Shown here: piece by piece, positions 3,147 to 44,049 of the stretch
Layout of the letters: each line of letters opens with the position of its first letter
Numbering within the stretch: the stretch's first letter is position 1
Sequence record: NZ_CP048628.1
From: a plasmid
Reading direction: 5' to 3' (one strand)
Length of the DNA: 46,189 nt
The notes under the pieces: model-generated
What the model saw: the letters and a program-made list of their open reading frames with translations, nothing else
Database searches by the model: none
What the model was told of the DNA's origin: nothing
Translations under genes and position numbers: made by a program

Positions 3147-3758
3147 TTATTTATTTGAATTTTGTATTGCCGCATTAATAGATGATGCTGTTTCTGAAGG
3201 GTCTACTTTCTGTAAAACTTTTTCCATTGCTACAGATGCAATAGCTCTGCCAACTGCATCTGTAGCGTTAGTTTTATTATTTACAATACCTGTACCTTGT
3301 CCTAGAGAAGTTGCCATATCTCCTAGACCACCTGCTAATGCTACATTTCCTTCAACATTCGCATTTTTAATCATATCTGCTTTTTGTCTAATTATCATGA
3401 AAAAATCTCCCACACCACTACTGGTTGAATATCTTTCATCATAATCAACAACAAAGGCAGTATCTAAAGTAATTCGACGGAAGCACTGTCCACCATGATT
3501 AAATTCTACGGTTACTGTTCTATATACGTCTTCTTCTTCTGGTGGTATCATTGACCATTCAAATAATTTTACTGTTTGGCTGTTGATGCTGCCATTATCA
3601 TCTGCTTGCAATTTTCCTGCAATTTGAAGCGTTAAACACATTTGCGTTGATTTTGCCCGTACATTATTCGGCGTATCAAGTGAAGCCGTTACCATCTGTA
3701 CAATATTTTCGCCATAAAAAAGCGATTCATTTCCTTCGATTTTTAAAGTGAAGCCCAT
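3147..3758 (-). CDS. hypothetical protein with a Gly/Ala-rich C-terminal tail; weak Hcp/tube-like resemblance (tentative)
   Basis: 203 aa. N-terminus MGFTLKIEGNES..; motifs KLFEWS and ITLDTAFVVDYDERY; co-oriented with the vWA gene immediately upstream. Confidence 0.3.
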   Translation of the reverse strand: MGFTLKIEGNESLFYGENIVQMVTASLDTPNNVRAKSTQMCLTLQIAGKLQADDNGSINSQTVKLFEWSMIPPEEEDVYRTVTVEFNHGGQCFRRITLDTAFVVDYDERYSTSSGVGDFFMIIRQKADMIKNANVEGNVALAGGLGDMATSLGQGTGIVNNKTNATDAVGRAIASVAMEKVLQKVDPSETASSINAAIQNSNK

Positions 3759-3772
3759 GATAAATCATCCTT

Positions 3773-4387
3773 TTATTTTTTTATATACCTTAAAGAAGCT
3801 AACATAAACTCTTTTAATAAAAATAGTACTATTTGCAAAGCTATTGTTAATAAACATATAAATAACGTACTAAATATAAATATTATTATATCTATTATTA
3901 TTCGTTTCAAAGATAATAGAGGATATATAAATAAATCATTAAAATAATATTTATAATAAAGCTCAAATATAAATGAAAACATATTTTGAATAGGAACATC
4001 TCTAACTTCATATAAAGTAACAATATCTTTACTCATAAAGATTATAACATTTGAAAATAAAGATATAGCTTTTTCTAAACCTGCTCCTGCGTTAGTATAT
4101 CCTTCATATGTAACATTATTTATTGAATTTAATATTTTACTTCTATCACTTTCTAGTGGTTCTACACATTGAACAATATCGTTGTATGATACAAAACCTA
4201 CCTTATCTTCATTTGATGCTGCATCTAAAATTAAATTTATACTATCTGGTGCTAATTTATTAAAATCATTGTCATTCATTGACACACTTGTATCTAATAA
4301 ACATATAATTTCTCTTGATGAAGCAAATACTATATTTAAACTGAATAAAAAACTAATAAATATAATTATTGCTATTTTTCGCAACAT
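3773..4387 (-). CDS. secreted von Willebrand factor A (vWA) domain protein
   Basis: Signal peptide MLRKIAIIIFISFLFSLNIVFASS; MIDAS-like motif LLDTSVSM (DxSxS). Confidence 0.5.
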   Translation of the reverse strand: MLRKIAIIIFISFLFSLNIVFASSREIICLLDTSVSMNDNDFNKLAPDSINLILDAASNEDKVGFVSYNDIVQCVEPLESDRSKILNSINNVTYEGYTNAGAGLEKAISLFSNVIIFMSKDIVTLYEVRDVPIQNMFSFIFELYYKYYFNDLFIYPLLSLKRIIIDIIIFIFSTLFICLLTIALQIVLFLLKEFMLASLRYIKK

Positions 4388-5980: not shown

Positions 5981-6190
5981 TCAAGCCTTTACATTTTTAT
6001 TTTTCAAATAATGTTTTTGACAATCTGCTATCCACAAACATTTTGCATTTTCACATGAATATTTACCATAACAAGGATTATTACCTTCTTCAGTTTGTAT
6101 AAGATGTATCATGTCAGCTTTCTTCAAATTCTTAGCAAAAACAAGATTTCTACTTTTTCCTATTTTTTTTATTTCTTTGATTGTTGGCAT
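5981..6190 (-). CDS. small Cys-rich hypothetical protein
   Basis: 69 aa; contains CYGKYSCENAKCLWIADC; overlaps the start region of the recombinase gene. Confidence 0.3.
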   Translation of the reverse strand: MPTIKEIKKIGKSRNLVFAKNLKKADMIHLIQTEEGNNPCYGKYSCENAKCLWIADCQKHYLKNKNVKA

Positions 6191-6191
6191 A

Positions 6192-6860
6192 TTAATTATC
6201 TCCTTTTTTTATATCAAAATGCTTTTCATAGTTTTTTACCATTCTATAAAAAGTATTTTTTGACATACCAAAATACTTAAACACACTAACAGCAGTTCTC
6301 TCTCCTGCTTTCCATTCACTATAAAATTTGTACCAATCTTTGGGGTAATCCATTTTAGGTCTACCTAAATGTTTACCTCTTAATCTAGCAGCTTCAATAC
6401 CCTCTTTTTGACGTTTTTTTATTTTTTCTCTTTCTTGTTGAGCTTGAGTGCTTAATACTTCTATTAAAATACTATTCACCATATCCATTATGGTTTTTTG
6501 CATATTACCAAACCCTTTAAAATCCATTAAAGTTGTCGGAATATCTAATATACGAATAATTACACCTTTTTTCTTAAAATAAGTTAATGCTTCTTTTATA
6601 TCATTTTTATTTCTACCTAAACGGTCTAATTCTGTTATATATAAAATATCATCTTTTCTTAATCGCAAACATAAAGTTTTATATCCTGGTCGTTCTAAAT
6701 CTTTTCCACTTTGTTCGTCAAACAATATGTTTTCTTCATTTTTAACATATTTTTTTAATTCATCTATTTGTCTATTCAAATTTTGATCTTTACTACTTAC
6801 TCGCGCGTAACCAAAAATTTCTATGTTACTCATACAATCACCATATATATTATATACCAA
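6192..6860 (-). CDS. serine recombinase (resolvase/invertase family)
   Basis: N-terminal IFGYARVSSKDQNLNRQ (catalytic-Ser motif YARVSSxDQ) and a C-terminal HTH. Confidence 0.85.
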   Translation of the reverse strand: MVYNIYGDCMSNIEIFGYARVSSKDQNLNRQIDELKKYVKNEENILFDEQSGKDLERPGYKTLCLRLRKDDILYITELDRLGRNKNDIKEALTYFKKKGVIIRILDIPTTLMDFKGFGNMQKTIMDMVNSILIEVLSTQAQQEREKIKKRQKEGIEAARLRGKHLGRPKMDYPKDWYKFYSEWKAGERTAVSVFKYFGMSKNTFYRMVKNYEKHFDIKKGDN

Positions 6861-6879
6861 AAGGTTGAAAAATAAAATG

Positions 6880-6960
6880 ACGTGTCAAAAGGTTTAACAA
6901 AATATTTTTTGATACATAAATTAAGCATAAAGTCTTACAGTGTCAAAAGGTAAACCTTTT
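6880..6960. promoter_or_regulatory. candidate res/crossover site for the adjacent resolvase (repeated GTGTCAAAAGGT motifs)
   Basis: The motif occurs twice about 55 bp apart (cgtgtcaaaaggtttaac and gtgtcaaaaggtaaacc) with small internal palindromes, immediately upstream of the recombinase gene. Confidence 0.3.
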
Positions 6961-7306
6961 TATACCATATATAACTATATTATAACAAAAAAATCTATTA
7001 TTAAACATTTTTTATATAATGTATATTATATAATTATATATATATTATAATATGTATATAATTATATATGTAGTATAATATATATATAATTTAACATGAA
7101 ACATAAAAAAATCGAATAAAAAGGTAATTCAAAAAAAGATGTCTAAACAAAAAATTACATTTAATACCGAAAAAGCAAAATTAAAAAAAAGGGTTCTTTT
7201 TCGGTAGTGATAAAAAAACAGCACCTTCAAAAGTTATTTTTATATGTAACTTTCTTCGGTGCAGTTCAATTTATATACATTATCATATGTTTAATTATTT
7301 ATATTA

Positions 7307-7606
7307 TTAAATTTTAGTTCTTAATTTATTTATCTCTTCAATACTTAATTCTGTTATATCTGCTATATCTTCTATATTATCTCCACGATTTAACATTTTA
7401 ATTGCAATTTTTATCGCCTTAATATTTTCACCTTGTTGCAATCCTCGTTGTAATCCCTGTTCTATCCCTTCTTCTTTAAATGCACTTATATACGAATAAT
7501 AATCTCTTATTGCTTTTTCTCTTTGTTCATAAGCTCTACGTTCTATTTTATCCTGTAAAAAAGTATCTTCAAATTCTACAGCTTCCTTAATTGCTGGAGT
7601 TGTCAT
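7307..7606 (-). CDS. stand-alone copy of the Rpn C-terminal domain (product of a 309-bp tandem duplication)
   Basis: The first 47 aa (MTTPAIKEAVEFEDTFLQDKIERRAYEQREKAIRDYYSYISAFKEEG) are identical to residues 196-242 of the 7631..8500 protein. DNA 7480..7618 is a perfect copy of 7789..7927; the C-terminus is divergent. Confidence 0.5.
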   Translation of the reverse strand: MTTPAIKEAVEFEDTFLQDKIERRAYEQREKAIRDYYSYISAFKEEGIEQGLQRGLQQGENIKAIKIAIKMLNRGDNIEDIADITELSIEEINKLRTKI

Positions 7607-7630
7607 TGCTATTTCCTCAAAAATTAAAAC

Positions 7631-8500
7631 TTATTCTACTTTTATTTTACTTATTTCTTCTATACTTAAATTAGTATATTTAGAAATAAGCTCTATATCT
7701 ACTTTATCTTTTAACATATTTTTTGCAGTTTGTATAGCTTGTTGATATGAACCTTGTTGCAATCCTTGTTGCAATCCTTCTTCTTTAAATGCACTTATAT
7801 ACGAATAATAATCTCTTATTGCTTTTTCTCTTTGTTCATAAGCTCTACGTTCTATTTTATCCTGTAAAAAAGTATCTTCAAATTCTACAGCTTCCTTAAT
7901 TGCTGGAGTTGTCATTGCTATTTCCTCCAATTCTTTTTTAGTGTATCTTCCTGAAAAATAAGCAAGCCATGCTTCAGATGTTCTTATTTTTCTCATATCC
8001 TTTAAAGTAAATTTTGGTAATTCTAAGAAATGTATTTCTATATGGTCTGTAAGTTTATTATGCGATTTCACATTTAAAAGGTTATAGATATTATGCCAGT
8101 CTTGCTCATCTTTTAAATAGTTAAATGCCAATAAATTTATAGTGATAGCTTTTTGTAATTTTGCATATTCAGCACCCTTTTCTAGTTGTTCTGAATACAT
8201 TTTCGACCAATAATATAGAGAACGCTGTGCCATTAAAGTAAATGGACAAACTTGAACTTCTATATCTACTTGTGTACCGTCGTTTAAGTCTGCTCTAATA
8301 TCTAATTTAGATAATTTACCGTCTAATGTTAATGGTTCATTATCTTTATCTAAAAAAGTTATATCTGTAAAATACTCTTGTTCATCTTTATTTAAAATGG
8401 CATTTAAGAAACTAAGTGTTAAATTTTTTCTATTTTTATCGCCTAATAATTTTTTAAAGTATAAGTCATTCAATCTATTGAAATTTTCCATGATATTCAC
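7631..8500 (-). CDS. Rpn/YhgA-like PD-(D/E)XK recombination-promoting nuclease (transposase_31 family)
   Basis: N-terminus ..FKKLLGDKNRKNLTLSFLNAILN.. and DIEVQVCPF (D-x-E-x-Q core), typical of the YhgA-like family. Confidence 0.65.
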   Translation of the reverse strand: MNIMENFNRLNDLYFKKLLGDKNRKNLTLSFLNAILNKDEQEYFTDITFLDKDNEPLTLDGKLSKLDIRADLNDGTQVDIEVQVCPFTLMAQRSLYYWSKMYSEQLEKGAEYAKLQKAITINLLAFNYLKDEQDWHNIYNLLNVKSHNKLTDHIEIHFLELPKFTLKDMRKIRTSEAWLAYFSGRYTKKELEEIAMTTPAIKEAVEFEDTFLQDKIERRAYEQREKAIRDYYSYISAFKEEGLQQGLQQGSYQQAIQTAKNMLKDKVDIELISKYTNLSIEEISKIKVE

Positions 8501-8675
8501 TCCTTTATCCTATATTATACCAAAACTTTAAATTAAAACCTAATACTATAAAAAGCAAGATTCCTTACAATGATATCATGTTTTTCTATTTCACATTGTA
8601 TTATATTACAATAATAATATAATTATATATATATAATACTATTTATATAATTATATATATAACATAATATATATT

Positions 8676-8689
8676 GTTCCACGTGAAAC
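8676..8689. promoter_or_regulatory. palindrome GTTCCACGTGAAAC (copy 2, one mismatch)
   Basis: Sits about 45 bp upstream of an extended -10 promoter (tatgTTATAAT). Confidence 0.45.
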
Positions 8690-8748
8690 ATTTTAAATGA
8701 TATACATTAGTTACTATATTTTGCTTAAAATATGTTATAATTGAAGTA

Positions 8749-8808
8749 CAAACACAACAGTTAAATAAAAGCAAAAAACCTTGAGATATGGTCTTACTTA
8801 AGGTTTTT
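8749..8808 (+). ncRNA. candidate small RNA (copy A), from extended -10 promoter TGtTATAAT at 8733..8741 to the hairpin terminator ccttgag..cttaagg plus T6
   Basis: About 55 bp homologous to 35088..35172; the hairpin stem differs by a compensatory change (t:a here, c:g in copy B), which argues for a conserved RNA structure. Confidence 0.45.
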
Positions 8809-8837
8809 TGCTTTTAAAACTTACAAGGAAGAAAATT

Positions 8838-9128
8838 ATGGAAAAAGTATTTACAAAAAATGAATTTGATAAAAAAATAAAAAGTATTTTGTTATCAAAA
8901 GATTATGTAGATTACAATTACTATGCAGTTTATATAGCAAAACATATAGAATTATATTTTGAAAATCCTTTTGATAAAAATTATTATAATATAAAAGATA
9001 TAAAAACTGTTTTAGGAGAAAAAATAAATCCTAATCATGATATTTATATGGATTTAGTCTATGAAGAATTTAAAGAATTAAAGTCATCAAAAACTGAAAA
9101 AGAAACATATAATGAAATGTTTTTATGA
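8838..9128 (+). CDS. hypothetical protein
   Basis: RBS aaggaagaaaattATG; 97 aa (MEKVFTKNEFDKK..). The track ORF begins further upstream at 8808. Confidence 0.4.
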   Translation: MEKVFTKNEFDKKIKSILLSKDYVDYNYYAVYIAKHIELYFENPFDKNYYNIKDIKTVLGEKINPNHDIYMDLVYEEFKELKSSKTEKETYNEMFL

Positions 9129-9147
9129 AGGAGAAAAGAATTTGATA

Positions 9148-9291
9148 ATGAAAAAAAATCTCAGAAAAATGATTGAAAAAAATCCAGATTATAAAAAATA
9201 CGGTGGTATGGATGCTGATGAAGACGTTTTAACTGCTGAAGAAATCGAAGAGTTAGAAAATGAAACTGAAGAAGATAATGCTAAGAGGTAA
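9148..9291 (+). CDS. small acidic hypothetical protein (47 aa)
   Basis: RBS gaaggagaaaagaatttgataATG; MKKNLRKMIEKNPDYKKYGGMDADEDVLTAEEIEELENETEEDNAKR. Shorter than the ORF-track cutoff. Confidence 0.25.
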   Translation: MKKNLRKMIEKNPDYKKYGGMDADEDVLTAEEIEELENETEEDNAKR

Positions 9292-9296
9292 AAATA

Positions 9297-10389
9297 ATGG
9301 CACTTCCAAAGAAAATACAAAATCAAAGAAAAGAATTAGTTGACAAAGTAGTAAAAGACATTGAAAGTGGAAAACCATTCTTTTGGGATAGTGGACACTA
9401 TGGTAAACAGCCTAGAAATCTTTTAAAAGCAATAAAAGGTGAGGATAACTATTATAAAGGTATAAATGCCATGCAACTTACAATAGCAGCTAGAGTTAAT
9501 GGATTTAAAGATAGTAGATGGGCTACATTTAAGCAGGCAGAAATGGCAGGAGGACATGTTAAAAAGGGTGCTAAAGGTACACATATAGAATATTGGCAAT
9601 ATACACAAGATGTAATGGAATTAAATCCAAAAACAGGTAAAAAAGAACCTGTTTTTGAGATAAATCCAGATACTGGAGAAAGAAAGAAAAAACAAATTAT
9701 GTTAGAGCATCCAATCGTTAAATCTTACGTCGTTTTTAATGGCGACCAGATAGAAGGCATTGAAAAAGAACAGTTACCTGTTATTAAACAAGAAGATAAA
9801 AATAAAAACATGGAAAACATGATTAAAAACAGTGAAGCTAAAATCTTTTTTTGATGAACTAAGTCAAAATTATTATTCACCTAATAAAGATGAAATACAT
9901 GTTGTCCCTAAAGAAAAGTTTAAGACTTTAGATAATTTTTACGCAACGGTAGCCCACGAGATAGCACATTCTACAGGTGCTAAAGGACGTCTTAATCGTG
10001 AAACTTTAAAAAATAATGATGGTTTTGGAAATGAAATTTATGCAAAGGAAGAACTTCGAGCAGAACTTACATCAATGTTTCTTCAACAACGTTATAATGT
10101 TAATTTTGATGAAAAGCATTATGAAAATCATGCAGCCTATCTGCAAAATTGGGCACAGGTGATAAAAAACGACCCGAACGAGATTTACAGGGCGGCCGCT
10201 GACGCCGAAAAAGCAATGAGTTATATAGAAACACGTATGATAAAGAAAAACCTTACAAAAGAGAAATCTGTGCAAAAAGAAACGGCACTTGAAAATAAGC
10301 CAGTTCAAAAGAAAATTATCAAGCAGAAAATCACAATGAAATTTGATACTCAAAAATCTAAATCAAAGGAAAGAACGCTTACAAGATAA
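9297..10389 (+). pseudogene. ardC: ArdC-like antirestriction protein (ssDNA-binding N-domain plus HExxH metalloprotease domain), split by a +1 frameshift in a T7 tract at 9846..9852
   Basis: ORF 9297..9854 (N-domain) and ORF 9832..10389 (VAHEIAHSTG = HExxH) are in adjacent frames. Deleting one T of the seven restores a single frame (..AKIFFDELSQN..). The C-terminus is KKIIKQKITMKFDTQKSKSKERTLTR. Confidence 0.6.
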
Positions 10390-11014: not shown

Positions 11015-11036
11015 AATTTTTTCCTTTATACAAATA

Positions 11037-11064
11037 AAAGCCTTATCCACAGGATAAGGCTTTT
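11037..11064 (-). terminator. hairpin (aaagccttatcc..ggataaggcttt) between the repeat array and the ToxN-like start
   Basis: Perfect 12-bp inverted repeat; on the minus strand it is followed by uauuugu. Confidence 0.5.
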
Positions 11065-11070
11065 ATAACA

Positions 11071-11171
11071 ATGTGAACCCCGACGTTTTATATCCCGCAT
11101 ATCGGGTAGCGGTAGACATGTGAACCCCGACGTTTTATATCCCGCGTATCGGGTAGCGGTAGACATGTGAA
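11071..11171 (-). repeat. tandem 47-bp repeats, 2.15 copies (array A), transcribed toward the ToxN-like gene; ToxI/AntiQ-like antitoxin RNA candidate
   Basis: Units 11071..11117 and 11118..11164 differ at one base; a partial unit follows at 11165..11171. A promoter TTTACA-16-TATAGT lies on the minus strand at about 11178..11206. Confidence 0.5.
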
Positions 11172-11196
11172 TTACTATATCTAGAATACAACATTT

Positions 11197-11343
11197 GTAA
11201 AGAAAGGTAAAGCTTTTTCTATAAACTCCACTCATTATACATCTTCTTTTCAGCAAGTTTTGTTTTATTTGTGGTCTGTTCGTTTTCTTGCCATTTTGCC
11301 CTAGATTGTTGCATGTTATCATTAACAAGATTGTCGGCAATCT
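11197..11343 (-). repeat. about 147-bp duplicated copy of the relaxase 3' end (roughly 90% identical to 11583..11729), encoding a 51-aa remnant peptide
   Basis: Remnant ORF MNTSKIADNLVNDNMQQSRAKWQENEQTTNKTKLAEKKMYNEWSL, compared with the relaxase C-terminus ..KISKIADNLVNDNMQQFRAKWQENEQTTDKTKLAEKKMYNEWSL. Confidence 0.6.
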
Positions 11344-11410
11344 TTGAAGTATTCATTTTTAAGAAAATAGAATGTACAATCTTTCATAATATACCTTTAA
11401 ATAAACTAAA

Positions 11411-11537: not shown

Positions 11538-11585
11538 TTTGTTTATTGCTATAATATAACACTTATAAAGAAAAGTAAAGTGTTT

Positions 11586-13568
11586 TTATAAACTCCACTC
11601 ATTATACATCTTCTTTTCAGCAAGTTTTGTTTTATCTGTAGTCTGCTCGTTTTCTTGCCATTTTGCCCTAAATTGTTGCATATTGTCATTAACAAGATTG
11701 TCGGCAATTTTAGAAATTTTGTCTGTAACAGACTGGTTACGTTTTTTATAAGCTTCCTGTATAATTGGGTGTTCATTTAATTTCTTTTGTAATATATTAG
11801 AATGTTCTTTGTGTGCATATAAAAAAGCAAATTCATTGCTTTTTTGAATAGAAATTTTAATGTCATTTGTTTTTAAATAATATACTGGTACTTTTCCTTG
11901 TATAATATCATCACCTATTTTTACTGCTTTATTGTTATTTTTATCAATTATAAAGTAGGTATTATTGTTATTTATAATAAATGGTAAATCTTTTAATGAA
12001 GTTATTCCATTTATTTTGTTTTTATGCTCTAATTTTGGGGAAATTTTATCGCTAAAGATTATAGTGTCTTTATCTTCTTTAGATAGTTTATCTAAAGCTG
12101 TTTTATATTTTTGTACTTGAAGCATATTGTATTTGTAACGTGCATATAAAATCTTATTTTCAGATATAGCATCTTCGTTTTCTTTTTTTAGTTGATTTAA
12201 AATAGAAGTGTATTTTTCATGGTTAGTGGTTAATTCAATTTTATAGGCACTTATACGTTTACCTATTTTTGTGCGACTTGAACTAAGCTCTTGGCTTTTT
12301 CTGCTTAAAGAGCTTAGTTCTTTTATTTTATCTGCTTTTCCATATAAAGTAGGCAAAATACTATTTATTTGTTTTAATTCTTTGGAGATTTTATCATATT
12401 GTTTTATATCTTTACTGTAATTATCATTAAACATCTTGTCTTTAGCTAATAATTCAAGGCGTTGTTCATTTAAAATATTTTTTTTGGCAGCTTTAAAAAC
12501 AGCTAAGTTTTCAGCTGCTTTTTTTTCAAATTCATTTATTTTTGTGTCTAAATGTTTGCATATATCACCAGTAGTTATTATCATAGCTTCTTGTTTAATT
12601 TCTTCGGCTTCAGCTATGGCTTTTTTAGTTTGCTGTTCTTTTTTAAGACGTAAACGTTCTTGTTGTATTTGTTTAGCTACTTGTCTTATTACTACATCAT
12701 TAGCGAATAGTTGTATTTTTTGTTCTTGAATAGATAAATTTTCTTCTTTTTCTTGTTCTATAAATCCATCTGCGGCTTCATCAGCTTTTGCATCTGTTTC
12801 ATCAATTTTTTCCATGATATGTTCTAAGATTGCAGGATTTTTATAAGCATTTCCTAGATGTGGTGCAGGTGTACGATTTAAAAGTTCGGCTTCTTCTATT
12901 TTTCCTTGTTCTATAAGTTCTTGTCTTTGAGCTTTTAAACTCTTTTCTGATATAGAAACATTAAAGCCTTTTTCCTGGAATTTATCATTTACTATGTCGG
13001 CGAAAAGCTTTCTAATATCAATAGTAGCTGTTTTTGTTGAGAAATCTCTTGATGAACGGTAACCTTTTGTAGGCTCACCAAGTTTATTTTCAGCATAATT
13101 TTTAAAATACATATCAGGTTCAAGTGGTCTATTTTTTTCAATTATTTTTTCATTAAACATCAAATGACAATGTATATTTCTATGTTCCTTTGAAAAAGTG
13201 GCTGTTTTATCATGAATAGCATAGGAATATACATGATTATCTTTTATTCCAGTTTCTTTTAAGAATTTTTCAACACATTTAATATTTTCTTCAAGGGATA
13301 ACTCTTCTTGAAGGGCAAATTTAAATTCTCTATAAGCTCTACCATTAGGTTTATTTCTGTGTTCTTCCGCTTTTTGCCAGAAATCACGTGGATTATCAGC
13401 CCATTCAGGTAAATTCCCAAAAGAAGTTATTTTTAAATCTTCTTGTCTATTTTTCATATTGGTATAATCGCCTTCACGGGAGATATAGTCATAATGGATA
13501 GCTGTATTAAGTTTCGTACCATCTTTTCTTTTGCCATGTGGTGTGTTTTCAAAATAGTAATGTGCCAT
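11586..13568 (-). CDS. mobA: MobA/MobL-family (MOBQ-type) conjugative relaxase with a long coiled-coil C-terminal region
   Basis: N-terminal Tyr motif (..LNTAIHYDYISREGDY..) and histidine triad (HDKTATFSKEHRNIHCHLMF). Confidence 0.75.
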   Translation of the reverse strand: MAHYYFENTPHGKRKDGTKLNTAIHYDYISREGDYTNMKNRQEDLKITSFGNLPEWADNPRDFWQKAEEHRNKPNGRAYREFKFALQEELSLEENIKCVEKFLKETGIKDNHVYSYAIHDKTATFSKEHRNIHCHLMFNEKIIEKNRPLEPDMYFKNYAENKLGEPTKGYRSSRDFSTKTATIDIRKLFADIVNDKFQEKGFNVSISEKSLKAQRQELIEQGKIEEAELLNRTPAPHLGNAYKNPAILEHIMEKIDETDAKADEAADGFIEQEKEENLSIQEQKIQLFANDVVIRQVAKQIQQERLRLKKEQQTKKAIAEAEEIKQEAMIITTGDICKHLDTKINEFEKKAAENLAVFKAAKKNILNEQRLELLAKDKMFNDNYSKDIKQYDKISKELKQINSILPTLYGKADKIKELSSLSRKSQELSSSRTKIGKRISAYKIELTTNHEKYTSILNQLKKENEDAISENKILYARYKYNMLQVQKYKTALDKLSKEDKDTIIFSDKISPKLEHKNKINGITSLKDLPFIINNNNTYFIIDKNNNKAVKIGDDIIQGKVPVYYLKTNDIKISIQKSNEFAFLYAHKEHSNILQKKLNEHPIIQEAYKKRNQSVTDKISKIADNLVNDNMQQFRAKWQENEQTTDKTKLAEKKMYNEWSL

Positions 13569-40529: not shown

Positions 40530-41900
40530 ATTACCAATAACGCCGTAAAGCCTCTTGCTTTAGCTATGGGGATATAAGGCGTGTCCGCCGAATTTGCGTA
40601 AGCAATTGAAGGTGGACTTTTAATTTGTTATAAATATAATGATTTGTTATTATATAATTATGAATAAATAAAAGGCAGGTGATTGTAGTGAAAACATATT
40701 GTTTTAAACTTTATAAGGCAAAAAGAAATAGAAAACTTAATAAAGTTATTAATATATCTGGAATTATCTACAATCACTGCATTGCTCTGCATAAAAGATA
40801 TTATCGTTTATTTAAAAAATCTCTTAATATCTATAAGCTTCAAAAACATTTAACCAAACTTAAGAAAATAGACAGATTTAGCTATTTTAAAGAAGTAGGC
40901 TCGCAAGCTATTCAAGACATAACTCAGAGAATAGACCGTGCTTATAAATTGTTTTTTAGAAATTTAAAACATAAAATTCGTACAGCACCACCATCGTTTA
41001 AAAAGATACGAAAATATAAATCATTCACTTTAAAACAAGCTGGTTGGAAACTTTTAAAAGGTAATGTTATAGAGATTAATAAACAAAAATACAGATATTT
41101 TAAAAGCAGAGATATTGAAGGAACAGTTAAAACAATAACTATTAAACGAGATACTTTAGGTGATATATATCTTTATTTTGTCTGTAAAACTAATGAGAAT
41201 GAAGTTTTAGTAAGAACAGGTAACAGCGTCGGTTATGACTTTGGACTTAAACAGTTTTTAACAGCATCAGATAATGAAAATATACAAGCACCCTTATTTT
41301 TTAAGCAAAATACTAATACTATAAAAAAAGCTAATAGAATATTATCTCGAAAAAAGAAAGGTTCTAATCATCGCAGATTAGCTAAAATAGCTTTTGCTAG
41401 ACTGCACAAGAAAATAGCTAATCAAAGAAAAGATTTTCATTTTAAATTGGCTAGAAAAATTTGTGCAAAATATGCTTTAATTTGCATTGAAGATTTAAAT
41501 ATCAAAGGAATGCAAAAACGTTGGGGAAGAAAAATATCTGACTATGGATTTGCTGAATTTATAAAAATTCTTGAATATGAAGCAAGAAAATTTAGCTCAG
41601 TAGTGCAAAAGATAGATAGATACTATCCAAGCTCGCAAATTTGCCATGTCTGTGGTACCAAAAATCCCGAAACAAAAAATTTAGCAGTTCGTAAGTGGGT
41701 TTGCGCAAAGTGCAAAATCAGCCACGATAGAGATAGAAATGCAGCTATAAATATATGGAAGGTTGGGACATCAACCTTCTTTGGAGAGATACAGTAAGAC
41801 CTGCTATTTTAGTAGGCAAGTATCGTTTGTATCCAAGAATCCCCTGTCTTTAGGCATGAGGAGTATGTCAAAAAATTTTTAAACTTGCAATTTGAGAATT
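40530..41900 (+). mobile_element. IS200/IS605-family element carrying tnpB only (IS1341-like); ends approximate
   Basis: GC-richer, structured flanks on both sides of tnpB (40530..40680 and 41800..41900); the right end may encode the guide (omega/re) RNA scaffold. Confidence 0.4.
40679..41797 (+). CDS. tnpB: TnpB (OrfB) RNA-guided nuclease of the IS605 family
   Basis: 372 aa; C-terminal zinc finger CHVCGTKNPETKNLAVRKWVCAKCKISHDRDRNAAINI; RuvC-like segments. Confidence 0.75.
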   Translation: MIVVKTYCFKLYKAKRNRKLNKVINISGIIYNHCIALHKRYYRLFKKSLNIYKLQKHLTKLKKIDRFSYFKEVGSQAIQDITQRIDRAYKLFFRNLKHKIRTAPPSFKKIRKYKSFTLKQAGWKLLKGNVIEINKQKYRYFKSRDIEGTVKTITIKRDTLGDIYLYFVCKTNENEVLVRTGNSVGYDFGLKQFLTASDNENIQAPLFFKQNTNTIKKANRILSRKKKGSNHRRLAKIAFARLHKKIANQRKDFHFKLARKICAKYALICIEDLNIKGMQKRWGRKISDYGFAEFIKILEYEARKFSSVVQKIDRYYPSSQICHVCGTKNPETKNLAVRKWVCAKCKISHDRDRNAAINIWKVGTSTFFGEIQ

Positions 41901-41942: not shown

Positions 41943-42791
41943 GTGGATATGGCAAAGAACAAACTGGTTGCCCCTGTTGTCAAATGGGTTGGAGGAAAAC
42001 GCCAGTTGTTAGATGAGATTACGCCTCTACTTCCTAAGCGGATCACTTCTTATTGCGAGCCTTTTTTGGGTGGTGGAGCCGTTTTATTTTCTATTCAGCC
42101 ATCCAAAGCAATCGTAAATGACTTGAATGAGGATTTGATTACGGTTTACGAAATTATTCGTGACGATGTTGAATCTCTTATTGCCGATCTCAAAAAACAC
42201 GAAAACACTTCAGAGTATTTTTATGCAATACGAGATTTAGATAGAGATAAAGCAACCTATCAAGCCATGTCAAAGGTTGAGCGTGCATCACGATTAATTT
42301 ATTTAAACAAAACTTGTTTTAATGGTTTATTTCGGGTTAATTCATCAGGGGAGTTTAATTCTCCTTTTGGTCATTATAAAAATCCTAACATTGTAAACGA
42401 ACCAGTTCTGCGGGCAGTAAGTAAGTATTTTTCGTCTGCTAATATCGCATTTTGCAATGAAGATTTTGCTGTGACTTTAAGTAGAGTTGGCAAGGGTGGA
42501 TTTGTGTATCTTGACCCACCGTATGATCCTGTTTCTGATACATCAAGTTTCACCGGCTATAATAAAGGAGGATTTGACAGAAACGAGCAAATCAGACTAA
42601 AGCAATATTGTGACGATCTGACGCAGCGAGGCATTAAATTTATGCTATCCAATTCTGCTACAGAGTTCATAAAAGAACTGTATAAGGACTACAACATATC
42701 CATTGTACAAGCTAAGAGGGTAATCAATTCAGATGCAAGCAAGCGTGGGGCAATAGAGGAGGTACTAATTAGAAACTATGGGACTAAATGA
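41943..42791 (+). CDS. Dam-family (D12 class) N6-adenine DNA methyltransferase
   Basis: VVKWVGGKRQLL (motif I region) and YLDPPYDP (DPPY catalytic motif). The region is visibly GC-richer than the plasmid backbone. Confidence 0.8.
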   Translation: MDMAKNKLVAPVVKWVGGKRQLLDEITPLLPKRITSYCEPFLGGGAVLFSIQPSKAIVNDLNEDLITVYEIIRDDVESLIADLKKHENTSEYFYAIRDLDRDKATYQAMSKVERASRLIYLNKTCFNGLFRVNSSGEFNSPFGHYKNPNIVNEPVLRAVSKYFSSANIAFCNEDFAVTLSRVGKGGFVYLDPPYDPVSDTSSFTGYNKGGFDRNEQIRLKQYCDDLTQRGIKFMLSNSATEFIKELYKDYNISIVQAKRVINSDASKRGAIEEVLIRNYGTK

Positions 42792-44049
42792 TACCGCATG
42801 GGAAAGTCTATTTGACAAGTATCATATTCTTGCTGAGATTGAGCAAAATGGACAGTTTATCATTTCAGCAAATCAGATAAAAGAGTTCAGAGAACCTCGG
42901 TTAATGACCAAGTTTGACCATAAAATAAATCTCCCCAATATTTTCACATCCAACAACTTATCAATTTTGCCAATAACTCGTGGAAATTATGTTATTTCTT
43001 CTTTTTCGGCGTATAAGGAGTTTGACGAGCCATCCCAAGATGTGCAGAAAATATCAATACCAGCACATATCCAAAGTTTAATGCCGCAGTTTCTTGTGAG
43101 CGAAGCTATTGCGTTAAATTGTGCTAATGCTTGTGGTATACTTAATGACTTTTTAGAGGATGATGAGCTTGTTTCAACAGTTAGCGGTCGCATGAGTTCC
43201 GGTAGTTTTGAATTTAGCATAAACACCGCTTTAGGAACGAAAAATATTACCGTAAGCAATTCTCAAATAGAAATTGATGCAGCATACGAAGGTATCCATT
43301 ATCTTTCTTTATTTGAGGCTAAGCGGGATTTGTCGGATGATTTTCTTATTCGTCAACTTTATTACCCATTCCGTGTTTGGAGTGAACGAGTGACAAAAAC
43401 AGTAAAGTCCATTTTCTTGATTTTTTCAAATGGTATGTTCAATTTATATCAATATCAGTTTGAAGATCCACAGAACTATAATTCTCTTAAATTGGTGAAG
43501 CAAAAAAATTATGTAATTGTAACAGAGATTTGCTTGGCTGATATTGAAAATCTTTTGAGAACTGTTCCTTTGGTGCAAGAACCTGACATATCATTCCCGC
43601 AAGCGGATCGTATGTCTCGAATAGTCAATCTTATTGAGCTATTAAATGAAAAACCGATGACGAAGCAAGACATTACATCAGAGTATGCTTTTGATGAACG
43701 CCAAACGAATTATTATACAGACGCAGGTCGGTATCTGGGGCTTATTGACAAAACCCATGATGAAGATGGTAATATTCTATTCCACCTTTCGACCTGCGGA
43801 CACCGTATAATGAGTTTGGAGTATAAGGAACGCCAGCTTGCACTTGTAACTCAAATATTGATGCACAAAGTATTCAACGAGACATTAAAACTCCATTTGC
43901 AATATGGAGAGATGCCGGATAAACAAACTATTATCCAGATTATGAAACGCTCTAATCTATATCATGTTGAATCCGACAGCACATATTTGCGACGTTCCTC
44001 TACAGTTGTTGGTTGGGTAAATTGGATTCTAGGAATTATCGAAGAATAA
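42778..44049 (+). CDS. candidate restriction endonuclease partner of the methyltransferase (unrecognised family)
   Basis: 423 aa; overlaps the methyltransferase stop; shares the GC-richer composition. Confidence 0.3.
   Translation: MGLNDTAWESLFDKYHILAEIEQNGQFIISANQIKEFREPRLMTKFDHKINLPNIFTSNNLSILPITRGNYVISSFSAYKEFDEPSQDVQKISIPAHIQSLMPQFLVSEAIALNCANACGILNDFLEDDELVSTVSGRMSSGSFEFSINTALGTKNITVSNSQIEIDAAYEGIHYLSLFEAKRDLSDDFLIRQLYYPFRVWSERVTKTVKSIFLIFSNGMFNLYQYQFEDPQNYNSLKLVKQKNYVIVTEICLADIENLLRTVPLVQEPDISFPQADRMSRIVNLIELLNEKPMTKQDITSEYAFDERQTNYYTDAGRYLGLIDKTHDEDGNILFHLSTCGHRIMSLEYKERQLALVTQILMHKVFNETLKLHLQYGEMPDKQTIIQIMKRSNLYHVESDSTYLRRSSTVVGWVNWILGIIEE

What the first reader, a model, noticed from the sequence alone, without database searches (positions are those of the whole stretch)
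7307..8500. Tandem 309-bp duplication creates a separate ORF for the Rpn C-terminal domain
Rpn/YhgA-like nucleases are toxic and, as I recall from recent work, are restrained by a small protein (RpnS) made from an internal in-frame start that corresponds to the C-terminal domain. Here the internal Met (MTTPAIKEAV.., residue 196) marks the exact start of a duplicated, now free-standing 99-aa ORF downstream. Its first 47 residues are identical and its last about 50 are divergent. This looks like an externalised intragenic antitoxin, or a diversifying specificity domain.
Basis: partly seen in the sequence, partly recalled or inferred. Interest (0 to 1): 0.55.

Follow-up and report, generated by a model that had tools for sequence, protein, structure and literature searches.

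The report
Rpn toxin gene with spare antitoxin copy
A Megamonas plasmid carries an Rpn nuclease toxin-antitoxin defence gene followed by a separately encoded second copy of its small C-terminal (antitoxin) domain. This arrangement has already been described for E. coli rpnE-ypaA, so the finding is real but is a new example of a known kind.

Summary
A 286-aa Rpn-family PD-(D/E)XK nuclease gene (7631-8491, minus strand) is followed after 24 nt by a 99-aa ORF (7307-7606). The ORF is a tandem copy, offset by 309 bp, of the gene's last 94 codons.

The copy begins 12 nt upstream of an internal ATG (7915), so it carries that start's Shine-Dalgarno sequence. A stretch of 152 nt is identical in both copies. 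Then come a 12-nt (four-residue repeat) difference and a tail that is only 41% identical.

It is not an assembly artefact. The same structure occurs in well over 20 independently assembled contigs in two plasmid lineages, including long-read assemblies.

The interpretation matches what Zhong et al. 2023 (PNAS) named rpnSs, a second RpnS gene downstream of rpn (for example ypaA after rpnE). E. coli rpnE-ypaA shows the same anatomy.

Three points are added here:
- The internal GGAGG-ATG is conserved across three genera.
- The shared 5' segment evolves in concert with the upstream gene.
- In eight Megamonas-type loci, the downstream copy always carries a different tail class, and in seven of them a different repeat number, from its upstream gene.

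Whether the ORF neutralises its neighbouring toxin is untested. Novelty: new member of a known kind.

The parts
7631..8491 (-). rpn gene (RpnL), 286 aa: PD-(D/E)XK nuclease core plus a helical C-terminal domain. The mechanical ORF list extends it to a GTG at 8500 (289 aa).
   Evidence: Pfam PDDEXK_2 1.6e-56. NCBIfam TIGR01784 Rpn family 3.3e-56. D64, E78 and Q80 are invariant in 54 homologues. AF2 model pLDDT 88; the weak top PDB fold hits are PD-(D/E)XK nucleases. pN/pS 0.02 between plasmid lineages.
8500..8505 (-). Shine-Dalgarno AAGGAG of the full-length gene, 8 nt before the ATG at 8491
   Evidence: Read directly from the sequence. Gene callers on related contigs use this ATG, giving 286 aa.
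7924..7928 (-). Internal Shine-Dalgarno GGAGG, 8 nt before the internal ATG
   Evidence: xxG-GAG-Gxx is kept at -13 to -9 in all 14 full-length homologue genes examined (Megamonas, Selenomonas, Paenibacillus), even where the encoded residues differ (L/M/W, E, E/A/V). GAG is only 18% of Glu codons in this window.
7631..7915 (-). Internal reading frame for RpnS (94 aa), from the in-frame ATG at 7915 (Met193 of the 286-aa protein, Met196 of the 289-aa reading)
   Evidence: Met is conserved in 48 of 54 homologues, with Val in 5. It lies at a helix boundary in the full-length model. All free-standing copies in other loci start at this Met.
7754..7777 (-). Two perfect 12-nt tandem units GGATTGCAACAA (GLQQ GLQQ) in rpn: the four-residue hypervariable repeat
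   Evidence: The sister plasmid lineage has one unit, giving a 282-aa Rpn. Homologues have 0 to more than 10 units.
7776..7927 (-). Upstream copy of the 152-nt perfectly identical segment (SD, ATG, codons 1-46, GG)
7467..7618 (-). Downstream copy of the 152-nt identical segment, including the SD core GAGG (7615-7618) of the 99-aa ORF
   Evidence: In the sister lineage the two copies differ at 6-7 sites, and two sites are lineage-specific but shared by both copies. This indicates gene conversion.
7307..7606 (-). 99-aa ORF: a separately encoded RpnS paralogue (rpnSs type). It has a conserved 46-aa N-terminal helix segment, three four-residue repeats, and a divergent three-helix tail.
   Evidence: TIGR01784 1.4e-14 over profile positions 190-273/273. 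Precomputed PF27070 HTH_Rpn_C. AF2 pLDDT 84 with helices 3-73, 78-85 and 89-98. The top PDB fold hit is E. coli RpnA-S 7TH0: TM 0.84 on the target, rmsd 0.8 A, 44% identity. pN/pS 0.17-0.20 between lineages.
7433..7468 (-). Three imperfect 12-nt units (GIEQ GLQR GLQQ) in the 99-aa ORF
7211..7262 (-). Hairpin (7221-7262) followed by a U run (7211-7219): the likely intrinsic terminator of the rpn-ORF99 transcript
   Evidence: RNA fold -19.8 kcal/mol, z = -4.1 against shuffles. The consensus terminator scan missed it. Only 24 nt, with no hairpin, separate the two ORFs.
7013..7091 (.). AT-rich 14-nt-period block downstream of the module. Context only: homology with the chromosomal copy ends here.
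8602..8674 (.). AT-rich block upstream of rpn, an imperfect inverted repeat of 7013-7091. Context only: it probably holds the rpn promoter, and it received an IS insertion in related contigs.

Best explanation
This is an Rpn toxin-antitoxin (antiphage-defence type) module on a Megamonas funiformis conjugative plasmid. It has three products.

1. RpnL (286 aa) is a PD-(D/E)XK DNA endonuclease and the toxin.
2. RpnS (94 aa) is translated in frame from the internal GGAGG-ATG at 7915. By homology with E. coli it binds RpnL through the long helix and blocks it.
3. The 99-aa ORF is an 'rpnSs' gene, a free-standing paralogue of RpnS.

The ORF arose by tandem duplication of the last 309 bp of rpn. The duplication started just upstream of the internal SD, so the copy kept its own ribosome-binding site. 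It is probably co-transcribed with rpn and ends at the hairpin at 7221-7262.

Selection keeps the ORF intact. Its first 46 codons are kept identical to rpn by gene conversion. Its repeat number (3 against 2) and its helix-turn-helix-like tail differ.

The most likely function is a second, heterotypic RpnS-type regulator. It would pair with RpnL or RpnS through the shared N-terminal helix and so tune or broaden control of the nuclease.

Shown: the anatomy, homology, fold, conservation, selection and gene conversion. Inferred: translation from both starts, toxicity, binding and neutralisation.
For: **Family membership.**
- Pfam and NCBIfam hits.
- The catalytic D-ExQ residues are invariant.
- The tail matches the RpnA-S crystal structure 7TH0 as the top hit.
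- Four-residue repeats vary, with 1 against 2 between plasmids that are about 97% identical.

**Internal start.** GGAGG is conserved at nucleotide level across three genera despite amino-acid changes. Met is conserved in 48 of 54 homologues.

**The ORF is a real gene.**
- It is intact in all related contigs read (9 + 24 + 24).
- pN/pS is 0.17-0.20, from 7 synonymous and 5-6 non-synonymous changes.
- The SD is retained.
- The same rpn-plus-small-ORF layout occurs at six or more other Megamonas loci and in Paenibacillus, with different 5' duplication boundaries.

**Gene conversion.** Identity is 0 differences in 152 nt here against 6-7 in the sister lineage, although the junction is the same. 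Two sites are lineage-specific but shared by both copies. In L011 the first 135 nt of the two copies are also 100% alike, yet they are 89% identical to this window's.

**Published precedent.**
- RpnS neutralises RpnL (PMC10400941 and PMC10400984).
- rpnSs genes exist downstream of rpnE and rpnC, and YpaA protein was detected (same papers).
- E. coli rpnE-ypaA has the same anatomy: the duplication starts at the SD and the downstream copy has one extra 12-nt repeat.
Against: No expression or interaction data exist for this locus.

Zhong et al. found that a one-repeat mismatch abolished neutralisation of RpnC-L by RpnC-S. Here the ORF differs from RpnL by one repeat (two in the sister lineage), and its tail is 41% identical. 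It may therefore not neutralise the adjacent RpnL at all.

The published RpnS proteins start 8-20 residues before the repeats. Here the start is 46 residues before them, so the E. coli binding model may not transfer directly.

Consensus promoter scans are uninformative in this AT-rich DNA. The pN/pS values rest on few substitutions.
Confidence: 0.7

Rival explanations
1. Spare-tail cassette. The downstream copy mainly serves as a reservoir of an alternative C-terminal tail and repeat number. Recombination in the 152-nt identical segment would either convert the rpn tail or delete 309 bp. A deletion would fuse the nuclease domain to the ORF99 tail and switch specificity.
For: Perfect 152-nt direct repeats are present, and recombination between the copies is documented. 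Across eight loci the small ORF always carries a different tail class from its long gene. Classes A and B occur in either position: B on the long gene in L048, L049 and L011 but on the small ORF in L051, and A the reverse. Zhong et al. report that rpnSs can be lost by fusion of the N-terminal domain to the rpnSs region.
Against: The ORF99 tail class was found only on free-standing 99-aa proteins. The best match on any full-length Rpn among 239 homologues is 58%. No fusion junction was found in the metagenome scan, but the control pattern found only one contig, so power is low. A deletion is one-way. The retained SD and the pN/pS below 1 argue that the ORF is itself expressed.
Confidence: 0.15
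2. Non-cognate or anti-defence antitoxin. The plasmid-borne small protein neutralises other Rpn toxins, such as chromosomal ones in recipient Megamonas, which carry many rpn loci. It would act like the neighbouring ArdC anti-restriction gene, rather than on the adjacent RpnL.
For: Repeat number and tail are mismatched with the adjacent RpnL. Neutralisation by RpnS is repeat-number specific. The gene sits on a conjugative plasmid about 1.7 kb from ardC. Megamonas carries many rpn loci.
Against: No full-length Rpn with a matching tail was found. The same heterotypic pairing occurs at chromosomal loci, so it is not specific to plasmids. The idea is purely speculative.
Confidence: 0.08
3. Decaying remnant. 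The ORF is a non-functional leftover of a duplication, or of a second tandem rpn gene whose nuclease domain was deleted.
For: RefSeq annotates the E. coli analogue ypaA as a pseudogene. Tandem rpn arrays exist (L017, L037, L051). Truncated rpn genes occur (L014, L038).
Against: The ORF is intact in every contig of two lineages. pN/pS is about 0.2. The SD and ATG are preserved in all independent instances. The layout recurs in two phyla-level groups.
Confidence: 0.05
4. Assembly artefact. Two alleles of the rpn 3' end were concatenated by the assembler.
For: Some short-read contigs break inside the repeat: L005 starts at window 7830 and L007 at 7723.
Against: The unique junction sequence and the full arrangement recur in contigs from many samples and assemblers, including long-read polished contigs.
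Confidence: 0.01

Closest known systems
E. coli K-12 rpnE-ypaA (rpnE-Ss) and rpnC-Ss (Zhong et al. 2023, PNAS, PMC10400941)
   Same: A small ORF lies immediately downstream of rpn on the same strand: 12 nt in E. coli, 24 nt here. The duplicated segment starts at the SD of the internal start. The downstream copy has one more 12-nt (four-residue) repeat. The 5' part is nearly identical and divergence rises toward the 3' end.
   Different: Here the small protein is about 95-99 aa rather than 61 aa, with a conserved 46-residue N-terminal extension. The tail is far more diverged (41% identity, a different tail class), whereas YpaA stays close to the RpnE tail and E. coli rpnSs cluster with their own upstream RpnS. 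The host is a Negativicutes plasmid, and the nuclease falls in Pfam PDDEXK_2.
E. coli RpnA-L/RpnA-S intragenic toxin-antitoxin; RpnA-S crystal structure 7TH0
   Same: A PD-(D/E)XK nuclease with an in-frame internal start that produces the C-terminal domain. The fold is a three-helix bundle with a long first helix carrying four-residue repeats. ORF99 residues about 54-92 superpose on 7TH0 with rmsd 0.8 A and 44% identity.
   Different: [quoted passage not shown] Sequence similarity to RpnA is marginal (E about 0.1). Toxicity, binding and phage defence are untested here.
Pfam DUF4351 (PF14261) and PF27070 HTH_Rpn_C free-standing Rpn C-terminal proteins
   Same: Free-standing small proteins that correspond to the Rpn C-terminal domain. 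Zhong et al. say some separately encoded RpnS are annotated as DUF4351.
   Different: ORF99 gives no DUF4351 hit at E up to 0.1 in the local Pfam copy. It carries only a precomputed weak PF27070 hit.
EcoR124I/EcoR124II HsdS 'TAEL' repeat variation (analogy drawn by Zhong et al.)
   Same: The copy number of a four-residue (12-nt) repeat inside a long helix changes specificity.
   Different: It is a different protein family. That case concerns DNA-target spacing, not toxin-antitoxin pairing.

Membership tests
Rpn (RpnL/RpnS) toxin-antitoxin family | N-terminal PD-(D/E)XK nuclease domain of the Rpn / TIGR01784 / COG5464 type with intact catalytic residues | tested here: met
   PDDEXK_2 1.6e-56 and TIGR01784 3.3e-56, both above curated cut-offs. 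K59, D64, E78 and Q80 are invariant in 54 homologues. pN/pS is 0.00 over the N-domain between lineages.
Rpn (RpnL/RpnS) toxin-antitoxin family | In-frame internal translation start with its own ribosome-binding site, giving a small C-terminal protein | tested here: met
   Met at sequence level only. GGAGG lies 8 nt before the ATG at 7915 and is conserved as nucleotides in all 14 full-length homologue genes checked, across three genera. Met is in 48 of 54 homologues. Actual translation cannot be tested here.
Rpn (RpnL/RpnS) toxin-antitoxin family | The C-terminal domain folds as the RpnA-S three-helix bundle with a long first helix | tested here: met
   AF2 pLDDT 84 with helices 3-73, 78-85 and 89-98. 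The top Foldseek PDB hit is 7TH0: probability 1.00, TM(target) 0.84, rmsd 0.8 A, 41 columns. The E-value is only 0.2 because the match is short. phmmer against 7TH0 gives E = 0.1.
Rpn (RpnL/RpnS) toxin-antitoxin family | Hypervariable number of four-residue repeats in the long helix among close relatives | tested here: met
   There are 2 units here against 1 in the plasmid lineage that is about 97% identical. The units are perfect 12-nt tandems. Homologues have 0 to more than 10 units.
Rpn (RpnL/RpnS) toxin-antitoxin family | [quoted passage not shown] | tested here: not met
   The repeats begin at residue 47. No ATG, GTG or TTG lies closer to them in this gene; position 40 is ATA here but ATG in many homologues. 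This points to a subfamily variant with a longer RpnS.
Rpn (RpnL/RpnS) toxin-antitoxin family | RpnL is toxic (DNA damage); cognate RpnS binds and neutralises it; the system protects against phage | not testable with these tools
   This needs expression, SOS, nuclease, SEC and plaque assays. The PADLOC 2023 library has no Rpn model; it gave only a weak 'putative invertase' hit.
rpnSs (separately encoded downstream RpnS copy, e.g. ypaA) | A small ORF immediately downstream of rpn, on the same strand, homologous to the rpn C-terminal region and starting at the internal start site | tested here: met
   The spacer is 24 nt. The homologous unit is offset by 309 bp and begins 12 nt before the ATG. 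E. coli rpnE-ypaA shows the same boundary at the SD.
rpnSs (separately encoded downstream RpnS copy, e.g. ypaA) | The downstream copy clusters with the RpnS of its own upstream gene (origin from that gene) | tested here: inconclusive
   The 5' 135 nt are 100% identical to the upstream gene, and the within-locus mean of 95% exceeds the between-locus mean of 91%. The tail, however, is only 41% identical and belongs to another class. Tails of other loci's long genes can be 66-87% identical to small-ORF tails.
rpnSs (separately encoded downstream RpnS copy, e.g. ypaA) | The protein is synthesised | not testable with these tools
   Only indirect support: the SD core GAGG at the correct spacing, intactness in all related contigs, and pN/pS of about 0.2.
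Pfam DUF4351 (PF14261) | Significant match to the family profile | tested here: not met
   No hit at E up to 0.1 in Pfam-A. The collection's precomputed hit is PF27070 HTH_Rpn_C, marked weak.
Insertion sequence / transposon (old 'putative transposase' annotation) | Defined terminal inverted repeats and target-site duplication bounding the gene | tested here: inconclusive
   AT-rich imperfect inverted repeats flank the module at 7013-7091 and 8602-8674 (54 nt, 89%). They are low-complexity 14-nt-period tandem arrays with variable unit number. The chromosomal copy was moved by flanking IS elements inserted into them, not by its own ends. No target-site duplication was identified.

The most novel reading that the evidence does not exclude
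In Megamonas-type rpn loci the downstream small gene would be an obligatory heterotypic partner, not a redundant antitoxin copy. In all eight loci examined it shares a gene-conversion-homogenised 46-residue N-terminal helix with its RpnL. It always carries a different tail class, and in seven of the eight a different repeat number. Tail classes exchange between the long-gene and small-ORF positions. This would be a two-cassette system that generates and stores specificity variants of an antiphage toxin-antitoxin. Alternatively, the small protein would form mixed RpnL/RpnS/RpnSs complexes with a distinct trigger. Neither possibility has been described for E. coli rpnSs.
Probability: 0.3. Interest if true: 0.55.

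Novelty: new member of a known kind. Interest (0 to 1): 0.3.

Why it matters
The finding extends the Rpn gene-within-a-gene toxin-antitoxin, and its externalised second antitoxin copy, from E. coli to a conjugative plasmid of a common human-gut Negativicute.

The nucleotide-level conservation of the internal GGAGG-ATG across Megamonas, Selenomonas and Paenibacillus is comparative evidence that intragenic RpnS production is ancestral in the PDDEXK_2-type subfamily. There the small protein is about 95 aa, roughly twice the E. coli size.

The consistent mismatch of tail and repeat number between each RpnL and its downstream small gene bears on two open questions raised by Zhong et al. and by Koonin. 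The first is what the second RpnS copy is for. The second is how repeat and tail diversity is generated.

If the small gene is a heterotypic regulator or a recombination reservoir, these loci would be a convenient natural system for testing it. As it stands, the locus itself is an ordinary example of a published architecture.

Tried and rejected
- **Assembly artefact:** rejected. The arrangement is in independent assemblies, including long-read ones.
- **PLSDB megablast of 6000-9500:** no match, so no annotated plasmid relative was available.
- **Consensus promoter and terminator scan:** 17 promoter-like sites against 19.9 expected and no terminator. It is uninformative in this AT-rich DNA. 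The terminator hairpin was found by folding instead.
- **PADLOC:** only a weak 'C3a178 putative invertase' hit to the helical region, because the 2023 library has no Rpn model.
- **Tail-only protein search (53 aa):** it returned two 29-aa fragments and did not recover the 99-aa proteins that contain the query exactly. It therefore says nothing about fusions.
- **Metagenome pattern scan for the predicted 309-bp-deletion fusion:** 0 hits, but the matched wild-type control pattern found only 1 contig, so power is negligible.
- **Supplementary files of Zhong et al.:** not held, so the C. difficile RpnS start could not be compared.
- **Transposon reading of the flanking AT-rich inverted repeats, and an invertible-segment reading involving the adjacent serine recombinase (6192-6833):** not supported. 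The repeats are low-complexity arrays, and the module's movement to a chromosome is explained by IS insertions.
- **An alternative internal start nearer the repeats:** none is available in this gene. Position 40 is ATA here, although it is Met in many homologues.
- **Foldseek of the full-length model:** only weak PD-(D/E)XK hits. No solved full-length Rpn exists.
Full report
**1. The observation**

Two ORFs lie head to tail on the minus strand.
- The first runs 7631-8500 (289 aa from a GTG). The likelier start is the ATG at 8491, which follows AAGGAG by 8 nt and gives the 286 aa that gene callers use on related contigs.
- The second runs 7307-7606 (99 aa).

The repeat finder reports 7443-7621 against 7752-7930, 179 nt at 96% identity with spacing 309. 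The pairwise alignment gives the detail.
- Identity is perfect over 152 nt (7467-7618 = 7776-7927). It begins at GAGGAAATAGCAATG, 12 nt before the ATG, and ends after codon 46 plus GG.
- A 12-nt indel follows: GIEQ-GLQR-GLQQ in the small ORF against GLQQ-GLQQ in the long gene.
- The rest is in frame and homologous but diverged. The last 38 residues are 41% identical.

**2. It is not an artefact**

The exact 99-aa protein is encoded on 9 contigs from different metagenome studies. Those contigs match the window at 99.6-100% identity over up to 10.4 kb and contain both genes and the unique junction.

A second plasmid lineage, about 97% identical, has the same junction. For each of its two ORF variants, 24 contigs were read, and they include long-read polished assemblies. 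Some short-read contigs break inside the repeat (L005, L007), as expected for a 152-nt exact repeat.

**3. What the genes are**

*The long protein.* It matches Pfam PDDEXK_2 (1.6e-56) and NCBIfam TIGR01784, 'Rpn family recombination-promoting nuclease/putative transposase' (3.3e-56). In an alignment of 54 homologues, K59, D64, E78 and Q80 are invariant. The AF2 model (pLDDT 88) has an alpha/beta core followed by helices 185-194, 196-210, a long helix 212-261, and two short helices.

*The 99-aa ORF.* It hits TIGR01784 over profile positions 190-273 of 273 (1.4e-14). Its model is a long helix (3-73) plus two short helices. Its best PDB fold match is the E. coli RpnA-S crystal structure 7TH0, with TM 0.84 normalised to the target, rmsd 0.8 A and 44% identity over 41 columns. 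The E-value is weak because the match is short.

*The replicon.* NCBI holds this 46,189-bp contig as Megamonas funiformis and names the small protein as Rpn family. The window is a conjugative plasmid. It encodes a MobA/MobL relaxase, VirB8, TrbI, a coupling protein, VirB4, TrbL-SLT, topoisomerase III and ArdC.

**4. What is already known**

Zhong et al. 2023 (PMC10400941) established the following.
- All E. coli rpn genes, and a C. difficile one, produce a small RpnS protein from an internal start.
- RpnS binds and neutralises the toxic nuclease RpnL.
- The shared long helix carries four-residue repeats whose number is hypervariable, and a one-repeat mismatch abolishes neutralisation.
- A plasmid Rpn protects against phage.

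They also describe separately encoded second copies downstream of rpn ('rpnSs': ypaA after rpnE, and rpnC-Ss). These arose independently from the upstream gene, also vary in repeats, and can be lost by deletion or fusion. Koonin's commentary notes the same. No later paper on these copies was found in the library.

I read E. coli K-12 rpnE-ypaA directly.
- ypaA starts 12 nt after the rpnE stop.
- The duplicated DNA begins at the SD of the internal start (AAAAGGAGAGATTAATG).
- YpaA has one extra 12-nt unit (EGKL).
- Divergence increases toward the 3' end.

That is the same anatomy as here.

**5. The internal start**

In the window, GGAGG lies 8 nt before the ATG at 7915. In every one, positions -13 to -9 read GGAGG even though the encoded residues differ: L/M/W, then E, then E/A/V (TTG GAG GAA, ATG GAG GCG, TGG GAG GTT and so on). 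GAG makes up only 18% of Glu codons in this window.

The Met is present in 48 of 54 homologues, with Val in 5. All free-standing copies begin at this Met and keep a GAGG, GGAG or AAGG core at the same spacing.

This is good comparative evidence that the internal start is functional. It also indicates that RpnS in this subfamily is about 94 aa. [quoted passage not shown] Here they begin after 46, so that published feature is not met. No alternative start lies closer in this gene.

**6. Evolution of the copy**

The two plasmid lineages share the junction, so there was one duplication before they split.
- In the sister lineage the two copies differ at 6-7 positions in the 152-nt segment. In the window they differ at none.
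- Two positions (AAG/AAA and GCT/GCA) differ between lineages but are the same in both copies within each lineage.
- In another locus (L011) the first 135 nt of the two copies are also 100% identical, yet they are only 89% identical to the window's.

Together these observations indicate gene conversion. The sharp switch from identity to divergence reflects conversion of a conserved 5' part, bounded by the repeat array, and not simply the age of the duplication.

Between lineages, rpn has 19 synonymous and 2 non-synonymous changes (pN/pS 0.02). The small ORF has 7 and 5-6 (0.17-0.20). The numbers are small, but both genes look constrained.

The rpn repeat array is two perfect GGATTGCAACAA units here and one in the sister lineage. 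This is the strain-level repeat variation reported for E. coli.

**7. The wider pattern**

Free-standing homologues of 87-135 aa are abundant in Megamonas. Three further families that I looked up each lie 18-68 nt downstream of a full-length rpn, at chromosomal and phage-like loci. The same layout occurs in a Megamonas MAG (L010, L011) and in Paenibacillus (L016, L018). The 5' duplication boundaries differ among these, so the events were independent.

In the eight Megamonas-type loci compared, the tail of the small ORF is 11-45% identical to the tail of its own long gene. Small-ORF tails can nevertheless be 66-87% identical to long-gene tails at other loci. Class B sits on the long gene in L048, L049 and L011 and on the small ORF in L051, and class A does the reverse. 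Repeat numbers differ within seven of the eight loci.

This differs from E. coli, where rpnSs cluster with their own upstream RpnS. The ORF99 tail class itself was seen only on 99-aa proteins.

**8. Mechanism**

*Best supported reading.* This is a three-product Rpn module made of RpnL toxin, intragenic RpnS antitoxin and a co-transcribed rpnSs paralogue. Only 24 nt separate the two ORFs, and a hairpin plus U run follows at 7211-7262 (z = -4.1).

*What the paralogue does is inferred.* It shares the N-terminal 46 residues and the long helix with RpnL and RpnS, so it probably enters the same helical oligomer. Its different repeat number and tail suggest an altered role, not a redundant one.

*Rivals.* They are a recombination reservoir for tail switching, a trans-acting antitoxin against other Rpn toxins, and a decaying remnant. 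The evidence for and against each is set out in the rival-explanations section. None of them can be settled without experiments.

**9. Things that led nowhere**

- PLSDB had no relative.
- The consensus promoter scan was uninformative.
- PADLOC gave only a weak hit.
- The tail-only protein search failed even to recover the source protein.
- The scan for the predicted deletion fusion gave 0 hits, against 1 hit for the control pattern, so power was low.
- The paper's supplements are not held.
- The flanking AT-rich inverted repeats and the adjacent serine recombinase do not define a mobile or invertible unit on present evidence. In the chromosomal copy, IS elements inserted into those AT-rich blocks account for the movement.

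**10. Verdict**

Three modest additions come from this work: the nucleotide-conserved internal SD in a subfamily with a longer RpnS, concerted evolution of the shared segment, and systematic heterotypic pairing of tails.

Interest is 0.3.

Noticed in passing
window 7013-7091 and 8602-8674: AT-rich blocks with a 14-nt period (TATATAATTATATA) flank the rpn/ORF99 module as imperfect inverted repeats (54 nt, 89% complementary). Unit number differs between plasmid lineages. In contigs L038-L040, IS elements (DDE_Tnp_1) sit inside both blocks, and the segment 7067 to about 8645 is found on a 316-kb chromosomal contig.
   Followed up: partly
window 11216-11353 and 11583-11720; also 11071-11164: The same plasmid has a second 3'-end duplication. 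A 138-nt direct repeat (92%) has one copy overlapping the 3' end of the MobA/MobL relaxase gene (11586-13568, minus strand) and the other lying within ORF 11026-11340. Next to it is a near-perfect 47-nt tandem pair, relatively GC-rich, which could be an oriT or iteron-like site.
   Followed up: no
window 3147-3758 and 3773-4387: The von Willebrand-A gene is split into two ORFs of about 203 aa here, whereas related plasmids (L001-L003) have a single 558-560 aa gene. The 99.6% identity to those plasmids stops abruptly at window 4048, inside this gene.
   Followed up: no
L038 4576-4654 (chromosomal copy of the module): A 79-bp, 65% GC insert splits rpn just upstream of the internal start. It leaves a 210-aa nuclease-domain ORF, a 90-aa RpnS-size ORF and the 99-aa ORF, so the toxin is broken and both small genes are kept. 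The contig is a hybrid (OPERA) assembly, so the insert could be an assembly error.
   Followed up: partly
L051-L053 (2103-4690) and L017, L037: There are tandem arrays of rpn units. In L051-L053, a 290-aa rpn plus a 97-aa small ORF is followed by a 295-aa ORF plus another 97-aa ORF, next to an ERF recombinase and a serine recombinase. Paenibacillus L017 and Cytophagales L037 have two full-length rpn genes in tandem that differ in repeat number or tail.
   Followed up: no
window 6192-6833 (minus strand): A serine recombinase (Pfam Resolvase, 1.4e-30) lies directly downstream of the module, with weak NCBIfam similarity to the Mpi master DNA invertase and XisF. It stays adjacent to the module in both plasmid lineages. 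No evidence was found that it inverts or excises the rpn segment.
   Followed up: partly
window 40679-41797 and 42778-44049: The plasmid also carries a TnpB/IS605 OrfB-type gene (Cas12f1-like TNB domain) and a 423-aa protein made of DUF6996, DUF6997 and DUF7226.
   Followed up: no
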